Source: Mustelus asterias
Taxonomy: Eukaryota
Length of the DNA: 64,000 nucleotides
NCBI RefSeq assembly: GCF_964213995.1
Contig: NW_027590120.1
Span: forward strand, 1,550,001 to 1,614,000
Direction of reading: 5' to 3'
The notes beneath the pieces are model-generated. The model did no database searches. It was not told the DNA's origin and saw nothing but the letters and a program-made list of their open reading frames with translations. This document shows, piece by piece, positions 18,360-49,207 of this stretch; the stretch's first letter is position 1; each line of letters opens with the position of its first letter. Position numbers and translations under genes: made by a program.

Positions 18360-18965
18360 GCCATTAAATTCTTGAGCATTGTTTTAAAAGATGGGCGTGG
18401 CCTAATTTACCGATGTTCGGGTCTGAAGTATTCAGTGCTGCTTTAAGATCCAGTGTCCAAGAGCAGTCCCGATCAGCAGCCTCCAGTTCCCCGTCATGTA
18501 AACCATCAGCTCCAGGCAGCAGAGAGATGGGAATCCTTGTTTTCACACTGTGTCTGTTTACACCGTGAGTACCGATAAAACTAACCCATACTGTGTGGAT
18601 TGAATATAAGGCTGGGTTTTGGCTGCGGGAGAGTTTCGACTGGAGCTTCACAGCTGAGTTTGCCCATTTAAATTCTTGAGTTTTATTTTTACGGTGGGCG
18701 TGGCCTATTATACAAATGAAAAGACCTAAAATATTTTAGGATAGCACCGAGATCCAGTCTCTCAGAGCAGTCCAGCTCTGCATTCTCCACCAACCACCCC
18801 TCCCCCCCCCCCCCCCCACCCCCCCACCCTCTCACTCCACCTGTCATATAATAAATAATCTCCAGACAGGAGCGATGGGAATCCTCCTTGTTTTCAGCCT
18901 GTGAGCCTGTTTACCACGTGAGTACCGATCACACTAACACACATTTTGTGGATTGAATATAAAGC
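18360..18965 (+). promoter_or_regulatory. Tandemly duplicated V promoter + leader unit (two copies ~300-350 bp apart)
   Basis: ccatt(t)aaattcttgag...gggcgtggccta...gatccagt...ATGGGAATCCT...gtgagtaccgat...tgtggattgaatataa occurs at ~18361-18610 and ~18664-18962. Leader exons are 18527-18564 (38 nt) and 18875-18917 (43 nt). Confidence 0.75.
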
Positions 18966-19341
18966 TACCCCAGTCCATCTCAATTACAGACACTGTCTGG
19001 TGTTTTACCCCGTTGAGTGATTCGGCTTTGATCGTCCATTAAACTTTGTGTTTAACTTCCAGGATCTTTCAGTCAGTCAGTGACACAGAGCCCGGCAGCG
19101 GTGACCAGGAAGGAGTGTCAGTCCCTCACCATCACCTTTGTTTTACATGGAGTTTATGATTCAGAAAATGGCCATTGTTTCAGACAAACCCAAACCGGGA
19201 CAGCTCACCAGCGGAGGGCGATTTGTTGTGTCGGTGAATAAAGCAAGAAGGACATTTTCGCTGGGAATTCATAATGTGAGAGTAGAAGACACCGCCACCT
19301 ATTACTGTAAAGCGCAGCGCTGGAGGGCACAGATGGGGCAC
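18875..19341 (+). pseudogene. NAR-TCR variable segment (VNAR-like), pseudogene; leader 18875-18917 + V exon 19063-19341
   Basis: Leader MGILLVFSL*ACLP|gtgagt (phase 1, TGA at 18902). V exon after ttccag: SFSQSVTQSPAAVTRKECQSLTITFVLHGVYDSENGHCFRQTQTG / frameshift ~19200 / QLTSGGRFVVSVNKARRTFSLGIHNVRVEDTATYYCKAQRWRAQMGH. VNAR hallmarks: short domain lacking the CDR2 region, GGR.V.SVNK, YYCKA; extra FR1 Cys (KEC). Confidence 0.85.
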
Positions 19342-19369
19342 CACAGTTCAAGAGAGAACGATAAATACC
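19342..19369 (+). other. 12-spacer RSS after NAR-TCR V
   Basis: CACAGTT, caagagagaacg (12 bp), ATAAATACC (7/9 match to ACAAAAACC). The 23-bp register gives only aggacaatc. Confidence 0.7.
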
Positions 19370-19689: not shown

Positions 19690-19781
19690 CATTCTTGTGC
19701 TGTGCTGACTGAGAGCAGTGTCACGGTGGAGAGAATGGAGATTTGCAGATGGGTCCGGGACGGTGGTGACTGTCACAGCCG
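19690..19781 (+). other. NAR-type J segment (19729-19781) with 5' 23-spacer RSS (19690-19728)
   Basis: cattcttgt, 23 bp, cacggtg, then REWRFADGSGTVVTVTA-G|gtgagt. The DGxGT motif is IgNAR-J-like rather than FGxG; phase 1 splice donor. Confidence 0.88.
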
Positions 19782-23533: not shown

Positions 23534-23836
23534 ATTCCAGTTAATCTTTGTCACAGAGTTCTCTTCTCCACAACTCTGCTGCAGGTGACACGGTTACTTT
23601 AAGCTGTGAATATTCAGGGAACTGTCAGTCCAATGTACACTGGTACAGTCAGTCCTCAGGACAGGCTCCGAAATACCTGCTTCAGACACACACTTCAGGA
23701 GAGGAGAATGAAAATGCTGCCGAGGGCAGAATTTCGGCTTCCACCGATTCTTCCTTCGAAATCAGCCGCTTAAGGATCTCGAAACTAGAAATTAACGACT
23801 CAGCTGAGTATTACTGTGCGCTGAGTCGGCCCAGAG
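23534..23836 (+). pseudogene. Leaderless supporting TCR Vdelta of NAR-TCR (single early stop codon)
   Basis: Acceptor cctgcag, phase 1: (D)SS*SLSQSSLLHNSAAGDTVTLSCEYSGNCQSNVHWYSQSSGQAPKYLLQ...RISAS...LRISKLEINDSAEYYCALSRPR. Canonical Cys, Trp and YYC intact, extra Cys in CDR1, TAA at 23542-23544. No leader exon recognised between the J and this exon. Confidence 0.85.
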
Positions 23837-24403
23837 CACAGTGATACAGAACACGGAGAGAACTGTACATGAACCTGAACATGGCGAGTATTACAGACAC
23901 AGTGACACGGAACAGGGAGAGAGCTGTACGAAAACTAAACATGTTGAGGATTACAGACACAGTGATACATAACAAGGGGAGATCTGTACAAAAACCTGAA
24001 CATGATGAGGTTTACAGACAAACATGGAAACAGAACACGGAGAGAGCTGTACAGAAACCTGAACATAATGAAGGTTTAATGAACATAATGAACATAATAC
24101 AGACACAGTGATAAGGACTTTGGAGAGAGTTGTCCAAAAACATAAACGCCGTGTAGCTTACAAATACAGTGGCGCAGAACACGGAGAGAGCTGTACAAAA
24201 GCCTGAACATGGTGAGGATTACAGACACAGTGATACAGAATTCGCAGAGAGTTGTACAAAAAACTGAACATGGTGAGAATTACAGACACAATGATACAGA
24301 ACATGGAGAGAGCTGTTTAAAAACCTGAATATGGTGAGGATTACAGACACAGTAATACAGAACCCGGAAAGAGCTGCACAAAAACCCGGGTATGGTGAGG
24401 ATT
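23837..24403 (+). repeat. Tandem array of nine 23-spacer RSS units (~61-bp period)
   Basis: Heptamer/nonamer starts: 23837/23867, 23898/23928, 23958/23988, 24021(dead)/24051, 24104/24134, 24165/24195, 24226/24256, 24287/24317, 24348/24378. All spacers are 23 bp. Confidence 0.93.
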
Positions 24404-49168: not shown

Positions 49169-49207
49169 AGTTTTTGTACAGGGTTGAGCCTGCTTTCTAT
49201 CACTGTG
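49169..49207 (-). other. Near-consensus 23-spacer RSS
   Basis: CACAGTG, 23 bp, ACAAAAACT on the - strand. Confidence 0.95.

What the first reader, a model, noticed from the sequence alone, without database searches (positions are those of the whole stretch)
23825..23996. Only the first, weak-nonamer RSS of the array can give a productive joint
Seen: in the V frame the first heptamer reads GCA CAG TGA (stop at 23842-23844), so any joint at units 2-9 retains an in-frame stop. Unit 1 has a poor nonamer (ACATGAACC), whereas unit 3 is a perfect consensus RSS and unit 9 has a perfect nonamer. Inference: the array cannot be a CDR3-lengthening device as written. It would divert rearrangements to non-productive joints that still leave upstream RSSs for secondary rearrangement, acting as an attenuator or retry mechanism, or it may have contributed to inactivation of this cassette.
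Basis: partly seen in the sequence, partly recalled or inferred. Interest (0 to 1): 0.7.

Follow-up and report, generated by a model that had tools for sequence, protein, structure and literature searches.

The report
Stacked RSS behind dead shark V
Behind a broken shark T-cell-receptor gene piece, the recombinase's cut signal is repeated nine times and an in-frame stop blocks read-through, but the same stack and stop sit behind every intact relative examined in this genome, so they are likely a passenger repeat and a by-product of the signal's own letters rather than a brake on rearrangement.

Summary
The sequence facts hold: TGA at 23842-44 in the V frame, a weak unit-1 nonamer, a perfect unit 3, nine 61-bp units. 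The title does not: this V has its own stop (TAA 23542-44) and its upstream NAR-TCR V is broken three times, so no unit likely gives a productive joint. The gene is a NAR-TCR supporting TCR-delta V. All 31 intact paralogues examined carry 2-6 stacked signals and the same TGA, so the array did not kill this copy. The TGA is heptamer TG plus the spacer's first A (95 of 105 distinct units) and also occurs in single-RSS V genes. This nonamer occurs in no intact copy. Unit 1 keeps its critical bases (0 of 13 representatives hit), downstream units do not (12 of 33) and decay at linker rate. All five independent joints seen use unit 1. Carpet-shark gene models read through unit 1 without a stop, but unit 2's heptamer looks dead. 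Verdict: an ancient, likely neutral RSS minisatellite; somatic decoy or retry use is untested. The scan noted the stacked signals before on other DNA of this genome (e1-9524918).

The parts
18875..18917 (+). Leader exon of the NAR-TCR V, with an in-frame TGA at 18902-18904 (TGT in an intact paralogue)
19063..19341 (+). NAR-TCR V exon, pseudogene: a-b loop Cys present, no Trp of WYRK, first canonical Cys changed to Phe, 11-base deletion that shifts the frame
19342..19369 (+). 12-spacer RSS-like signal behind the NAR V (CACAGTT / ATAAATACC)
19729..19781 (+). NAR-TCR J segment (FADGSGTVVTVTA) ending at a GT donor
23534..23836 (+). Supporting TCR-delta V exon: Cys 23605, CDR1 Cys 23623, Trp 23641, Cys 23815; in-frame TAA 23542-23544; Pfam V-set E 1.6e-14
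23583..23584 (+). Cryptic phase-1 splice acceptor AG downstream of the TAA; use not shown
23837..23875 (+). Unit 1 23-RSS: consensus heptamer, nonamer ACATGAACC (positions 4 and 5 changed); heptamer TG plus spacer A form the TGA at 23842-23844
23837..24403 (+). Nine-unit 61-bp tandem array (heptamer, 23 spacer, nonamer, 22-base linker); longest of the 54 unjoined family copies examined
23958..23996 (+). Unit 3, perfect consensus 23-RSS
24348..24386 (+). Unit 9, heptamer CACAGTA with perfect nonamer

Best explanation
The locus is a broken NAR-TCR cassette whose supporting TCR-delta V carries a family-wide 61-bp tandem repeat of its 23-RSS, and the repeat is likely a passenger that grows and shrinks by unequal exchange, with only the V-proximal signal likely kept by selection. 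Shown: the four lesions, the array behind all 31 intact paralogues, the TGA as heptamer TG plus spacer A when the V ends 22 bases after the Cys codon start, conserved critical bases in unit 1 only, and unit-1 use in every joint found. Inferred: unequal exchange as the cause of the 1-9 unit range, that the weak nonamer here is decay after the gene died, and that rare cuts at downstream units would give stop-bearing, wasted joints that are tolerated rather than selected.
For: Lesions: leader TGA, Cys to Phe, 11-base deletion, TAA; none of 19 delta-type C exons and none of 19 D copies lies on C88 or C108. Family: 31 of 54 unjoined copies are intact, all 31 have 2-6 units and the TGA. By-product: TGA at heptamer 6-7 plus spacer 1 in 95 of 105 distinct units; 4 of 25 distinct single-RSS V genes, the window's own V at 49207 among them, have the same stop, and 0 of 25 have an array; 14 of 14 copies of another V inside the clusters have one RSS. 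Selection: unit 1 of intact V has 0 of 112 mismatches at CAC plus nonamer positions 2, 5, 6, 7, downstream units 22 of 294, against 0.078 in spacers and 0.091 in linkers; 9 distinct alleles at those 7 sites downstream against 9.2 expected; 0 of 13 versus 12 of 33 in hand-picked clade representatives. Length varies from 3 to 6 units among close paralogues and from 2 to 6 in another clade. Joints: four events in the assembly and one in run X1, all at unit 1; the C122 inversion keeps all four units behind a precise signal joint.
Against: The array is old: array-like read-through occurs in gene models of Hemiscyllium, Rhincodon, Stegostoma, Pristiophorus and Pristis, and no intact copy here has shrunk to one unit (0 of 31, against 5 of 23 broken copies, which are only 2 lineages); pure drift should sometimes lose it. 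Many downstream units are still good signals (28 of 42 distinct in intact arrays). Whole-unit conservation tests had little power: unit 1's heptamer plus nonamer was not significantly more conserved than spacer plus linker (p 0.51); only the seven critical sites separate it (Poisson p 0.038), and copies are related. About 4 of 9 distinct array ends, judged by eye, lie within 2 bases of a downstream heptamer border (p about 0.004, post hoc), which may record old cuts at downstream units. No somatic junctions were available.
Confidence: 0.65

Rival explanations
1. Decoy or retry device: RAG often cuts a downstream unit, the joint keeps the TGA and is non-productive, and upstream units then join a remaining D or J. 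This would throttle or prolong rearrangement of the supporting V.
For: Geometry allows it in intact clusters: one D and four or five J segments, most with 12-RSS, follow the array. 28 of 42 downstream units remain plausible signals. The TGA is conserved in Mustelus, Scyliorhinus, Carcharodon, Cetorhinus and Heterodontus models. Alternative RSS use that retains an RSS in the joint is documented in mouse TRB (PMC6857471, passages). Array ends cluster near heptamer borders.
Against: No selection on downstream signals; 0 of 6 V-D joints among 19 D copies retain a unit; the C122 inversion cut first at unit 1 with two more perfect signals on offer; unit 1 is not systematically the weakest; carpet sharks lack the stop. 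It cannot operate for the window's own dead copy.
Confidence: 0.13
2. RAG-loading platform: extra nonamers and heptamers raise local RAG occupancy so that the leaderless supporting V is cut efficiently at unit 1; downstream units bind but are seldom joined.
For: Arrays are specific to the supporting V (0 of 25 conventional V and 0 of 14 in-cluster V have one), are ancient and never fall to one unit in intact copies. Nonamers mainly serve RAG binding (PMC7337519, passages).
Against: Downstream nonamers are the least conserved part of the unit (0.153 mismatches per site against 0.091 in linkers), and usage data per cassette are lacking.
Confidence: 0.12
3. CDR3-extension device in some lineages: where unit 1 reads open, a joint at unit 2 adds about 20 residues between the supporting V and D.
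For: Gene models from carpet sharks put the heptamer in another phase and read through unit 1 without a stop; Pristiophorus P0032 and Pristis P0045 read through in the phase seen here.
Against: Impossible in this genome's intact copies (31 of 31 with TGA). In all 6 carpet-shark models that reach unit 2 the residue expected from CAC (His) is Gln, which implies a dead heptamer. None of 61 proteins retrieved shows an array peptide followed by J and C, but nearly all are genome-based models, not cDNAs.
Confidence: 0.06
4. The expanded nine-unit array diverted rearrangement and so inactivated this cassette.
For: It is the longest array seen and sits on a dead copy.
Against: Intact copies carry up to 6 units; broken copies range from 1 to 9. 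The cassette has four unrelated lesions and no D or C on its contig. The order of events is not known.
Confidence: 0.04

Closest known systems
NAR-TCR, the doubly rearranging TCR-delta of cartilaginous fish (Criscitiello 2006, not held; features from passages of PMC1845163, and PMC5931798)
   Same: Leader, NAR-type V, J, then a leaderless delta V with a CDR1 cysteine; contigs from two runs splice the NAR J onto a paralogous supporting V.
   Different: This copy is a pseudogene. Stacked 23-RSS behind the supporting V, many separate D-J-C clusters (19 C exons) and inherited V-D joints were not described in the passages read.
Alternative RSS use with germline DNA retention in mouse TRBJ1-2 and TRBJ1-7 and human TRGVB (PMC6857471, abstract and passages)
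   Same: A second signal lies a few dozen bases beyond the first, and its use leaves the first RSS inside the coding joint.
   Different: There the extra signals are single, dissimilar and cryptic, with use shown by sequencing; here they are tandem near-consensus copies on the V side and no retained-unit joint was found.
Secondary rearrangement and receptor editing at TCR-alpha and Ig kappa, and VH replacement (recalled; search listing only)
   Same: Unused signals left on the chromosome allow a second round.
   Different: Those use other gene segments or a heptamer inside the rearranged V; here the same V would be reused through retained signals, which is untested.
Germline-joined antigen-receptor genes of cartilaginous fish and marsupial TCR-mu (recalled; search listing; one passage in PMC5931798)
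   Same: V-D joints with RAG-type trimming are present in the assembly and in independent runs.
   Different: Here they are supporting V to D-delta joints that delete the array; a side finding.

Membership tests
NAR-TCR cassette | NAR V with a leader, an a-b loop cysteine and no Trp of WYRK | tested here: met
   Window 18875-19341: leader present but with a stop, RKECQ cysteine, no Trp; features from PMC1845163
NAR-TCR cassette | Supporting delta V with a CDR1 cysteine | tested here: met
   CEYSGNC, Cys at 23623
NAR-TCR cassette | Supporting V has no leader and is spliced to the NAR J | tested here: met
   Shown for paralogues: contigs of X1 and X6 join the J to the V at its acceptor; for the window copy only the J donor and V acceptor are seen
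NAR-TCR cassette | Downstream D, J and C-delta for the second rearrangement | tested here: inconclusive
   Present 19-38 kb behind many paralogues; none of 19 D or 19 C copies on C88 or C108; use of a cluster on another contig cannot be excluded
Functional NAR-TCR gene | Open reading frames in leader, NAR V and supporting V | tested here: not met
   Four lesions; 13 of 21 distinct NAR V sequences in the fetched loci passed the same check
Alternative-RSS or retry system | Joints at a distal signal that retain the proximal RSS | tested here: not met
   0 of 5 independent joints; all germline or contig-level, so rare somatic use is not excluded
Alternative-RSS or retry system | Distal signals kept functional by selection | tested here: not met
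   Critical sites of downstream units vary at spacer and linker rate
Alternative-RSS or retry system | Somatic junction frequency per unit in thymocytes | not testable with these tools
   Only contig-level runs were listed
Tandem repeat (minisatellite) | Head-to-tail units with copy-number variation among close copies | tested here: met
   Period 61; 1-9 units, 3-6 within one clade

The most novel reading that the evidence does not exclude
The stacked signals are a shark-wide, RAG-reactive element of NAR-TCR: downstream units are cut in thymocytes and in the germ line, giving retry joints where the heptamer spells a stop, 20-residue CDR3 spacers in lineages where unit 1 reads open, and the head-to-head fusions that built the convergent cassette pairs.
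Probability: 0.15. Interest if true: 0.78.

Novelty: new variant of a known kind. Interest (0 to 1): 0.4.

Why it matters
The highlighted stop and weak first signal are ordinary once the family is seen. The family trait is unusual: a V segment with up to nine stacked 23-RSS was not found in the held literature (searches; the key shark papers were not held). Natural arrays of 1-9 near-identical signals at a fixed 61-bp step would let one measure how RAG chooses among adjacent equivalent signals. The assembly also holds recent inherited RAG-type joints, which bear on recombinase activity in the shark germ line.

Tried and rejected
Expression: no RNA holder was listed on record; X1 is a guessed RNA run and X6 has no kind on record, and all runs are contigs, so nothing is claimed on level or on somatic junction frequency. 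X2 gave five short array-only contigs, not used. A segment I first took for an upstream D proved to be the end of another V with one RSS and was reused as a control. A pattern search for signal joints at any unit found only the C122 unit-1 joint; it allowed no mismatches and would miss divergent units. The PDB sequence search gave only generic antibody V domains. Whole heptamer plus nonamer versus spacer plus linker did not separate unit 1 from background. Criscitiello 2006, Ott 2021 and Deiss 2019 were not held, so their text and supplements, which may show germline supporting-V flanks, were not seen. Eight family hits were not analysed (C153:383283, two on C444, two on C2349, C108:1058002, C270, C128). 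Considered and rejected: assembly error for the TAA (identical on two contigs) and signal-joint origin of the array (units are head to tail).

Full report
Observation. The V reading frame runs TAT TAC TGT (Cys 23815-17) to GCA CAG TGA, with the stop at 23842-44. Nine 61-bp units follow, each a heptamer, 23-base spacer, nonamer and 22-base linker. Unit 1 has nonamer ACATGAACC (positions 4 and 5 changed), unit 3 is perfect and unit 9 has a perfect nonamer. An A-to-T change at nonamer position 4 is reported to lower paired-complex formation (PMC7337519, passages), so 'weak' is fair. Seven signals pass a fixed threshold in 600 bases; 1000 shuffles gave at most one.

What the gene is. The exon is an Ig V-set domain with a CDR1 cysteine. 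About 4 kb upstream lie a leader, a V with an a-b loop cysteine and no Trp of WYRK, and a J. These match the features of NAR-TCR V and its supporting TCR-delta V given in PMC1845163 (passages). The closest named proteins to a paralogue are shark and ray gene models, led by Mustelus asterias records at up to 100% identity. The cassette is dead four times over: leader TGA, Cys to Phe, an 11-base deletion, and the TAA. A cryptic acceptor at 23583-84 could skip the TAA only by losing about 17 residues. None of 19 D copies and none of 19 C exons lies on the window's contig C88 or on C108, which holds its twin.

The family. A protein search of the genome gave 68 strong family hits; 60 places were analysed and C401. 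Of 54 unjoined copies, 31 have an intact V, and all 31 carry 2-6 units and the TGA; the 23 broken copies carry 1-9 units, and all 12 copies without the stop are broken. Many copies are near-identical, so the independent number is smaller (43 distinct V sequences in the tree). Intact clusters run NAR V, D, J, supporting V, array, another V, D, four or five J, C. Arrays are specific to the supporting V: 0 of 25 distinct conventional V genes and 0 of 14 copies of the in-cluster V have one.

The stop is a by-product. The V ends 22 bases after the start of the Cys codon, which puts heptamer TG and the first spacer base in one codon; that triplet is TGA in 95 of 105 distinct units. Four of 25 single-RSS V genes with the same phase have the same stop, including the window's V at 49207. 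Gene models from Scyliorhinus, Carcharodon, Cetorhinus and Heterodontus mostly end at the same residue, while those of carpet sharks (Hemiscyllium, Rhincodon, Stegostoma, Chiloscyllium) have another phase and read through unit 1. In the 6 carpet-shark models that reach unit 2, His is replaced by Gln, which implies loss of CAC. These are predicted proteins; their DNA was not seen.

The weak first signal is not a design. Unit-1 nonamers of intact copies are ACAAAAACC (14), ACAGAAACT (8), ACAGAAACC (6) and TCAAAAACC (3); ACATGAACC occurs only in the window copy and its twin. Unit 1 is weaker than the best downstream unit in 8 of 22 distinct intact arrays, tied in 7 and better in 7.

Selection test. 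At CAC and nonamer positions 2, 5, 6 and 7 (the nonamer positions were chosen from recall; CAC per PMC7337519), unit 1 of intact V genes has 0 of 112 mismatches, downstream units 22 of 294, equal to spacer (0.078) and linker (0.091) rates. Counting distinct alleles, downstream units have 9 where 9.2 are expected, unit 1 has 0 where 3.3 are expected (p 0.038). In 13 hand-picked clade representatives, 0 of 13 first units and 12 of 33 downstream units are hit. Whole heptamer plus nonamer did not separate unit 1 from background (p 0.51), so the signal rests on seven sites in related sequences.

Natural joints. The assembly holds rearranged supporting V genes. C122 is an inversion against a germline copy that is over 99% identical: the untrimmed V end is joined to the cassette's own D and a precise heptamer-to-heptamer joint is followed by all four units. 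Of 19 D copies, 12 are germline, one is D-D joined, one is joined to another V and five to supporting V genes (C119, C436 and C96 share one junction; C850; C401, whose V is a pseudogene); none keeps an array unit. Run X1 shows a fifth junction, also at the V end; whether that organism's V has an array is unknown. X3 holds the C119-type junction, X6 the C850 junction, and X4 has contigs that stop at both sides of it, so these joints are likely inherited. By hand, four unit-1 joints by chance among competent signals would have odds of about 1 in 24 to 1 in 60, and 1 in 6 to 1 in 15 for the two that cannot have been selected for productivity. Deletional joints could hide an earlier downstream joint; only C122 shows the first cut.

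Mechanism. Most likely a duplication of the RSS and 22 flanking bases arose behind the ancestral supporting V, probably before sharks and rays split (array-like peptides in Pristis and Pristiophorus), and has since changed length by unequal exchange (inferred). Selection keeps unit 1. In this copy the gene died and the whole array decayed. Against pure neutrality: no intact copy has one unit, and about 4 of 9 distinct array ends lie at a heptamer border (post hoc), including the junction of the convergent cassette pairs; a seventh-type end that keeps a heptamer remnant at its centre suggests ordinary inversion at the near-palindromic heptamer as an alternative.

Comparison and novelty. The gene is a NAR-TCR pseudogene, a known kind. 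Use of an alternative RSS that leaves an RSS in the joint is known from mouse TRB (PMC6857471, abstract and passages). Searches found no description of stacked V-side RSS in sharks, but three key papers were not held. PMC12227049 and PMC5931798 were read as passages and PMC2118463 as abstract and outline (not relied on).

Verdict. Observation partly confirmed; interpretation partly supported; new variant of a known kind; interest 0.4.

Noticed in passing
L037 2648-8437 (G000:C122:393147-398936): RAG-type inversion: supporting V joined to its own cassette's D with no added bases, with a precise signal joint; the V is identical to an unjoined copy at C71:12229703, so the event is recent.
   Followed up: yes
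L101-L103, L115, L116 (C119, C436, C96, C850, C401): Supporting V to D-delta joints that look inherited. The C850 V is identical to the unjoined C154 V but is joined to a D of another cluster type; C401 has one added base that fits a P nucleotide.
   Followed up: partly
G000, 19 places: Nineteen TCR-delta-type C exons, most at the end of a NAR-TCR cluster with its own D and J segments: a multi-cluster layout (some copies may be haplotype duplicates).
   Followed up: partly
L006, L018, L020-L023, L027, L051 and others: Supporting V genes in convergent pairs whose arrays meet linker to linker close to a heptamer border; most share one junction, and the two arms belong to different clades.
   Followed up: partly
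L106 (G000:C71:11023774) and L118 (G000:C138:217580): A non-supporting V joined to D, and a D-D joint, in the assembly.
   Followed up: no
P0027, P0029, P0034, P0035, P0040, P0046: Carpet-shark supporting V models read through unit 1 in frame, and unit 2's heptamer appears to have lost CAC in all six.
   Followed up: partly
P0007 (unnamed ENA contig, 1007 bases): A supporting V with a five-unit array whose translated end matches the end of the window's array, so the last units here may be older than the rest.
   Followed up: no
window 19342-19369 and 19729-19781: The NAR V is followed directly by a 12-spacer signal with no free D before the J, unlike cassettes such as L038 that have a V 23-RSS and a D flanked by two 12-RSS.
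   Followed up: no
window 18527-18565: A second, duplicated leader-like exon about 350 bases upstream of the NAR V leader.
   Followed up: no
window 49207 (-) and 16270 (-): Two conventional V genes with single 23-RSS: the first looks intact and also has the heptamer TGA in frame; the second has a stop and lacks the second Cys.
   Followed up: partly
L136 (G000:C173:111060-111260) and 13 copies: A further V segment with a single RSS lies between the array and the D in the clusters.
   Followed up: partly
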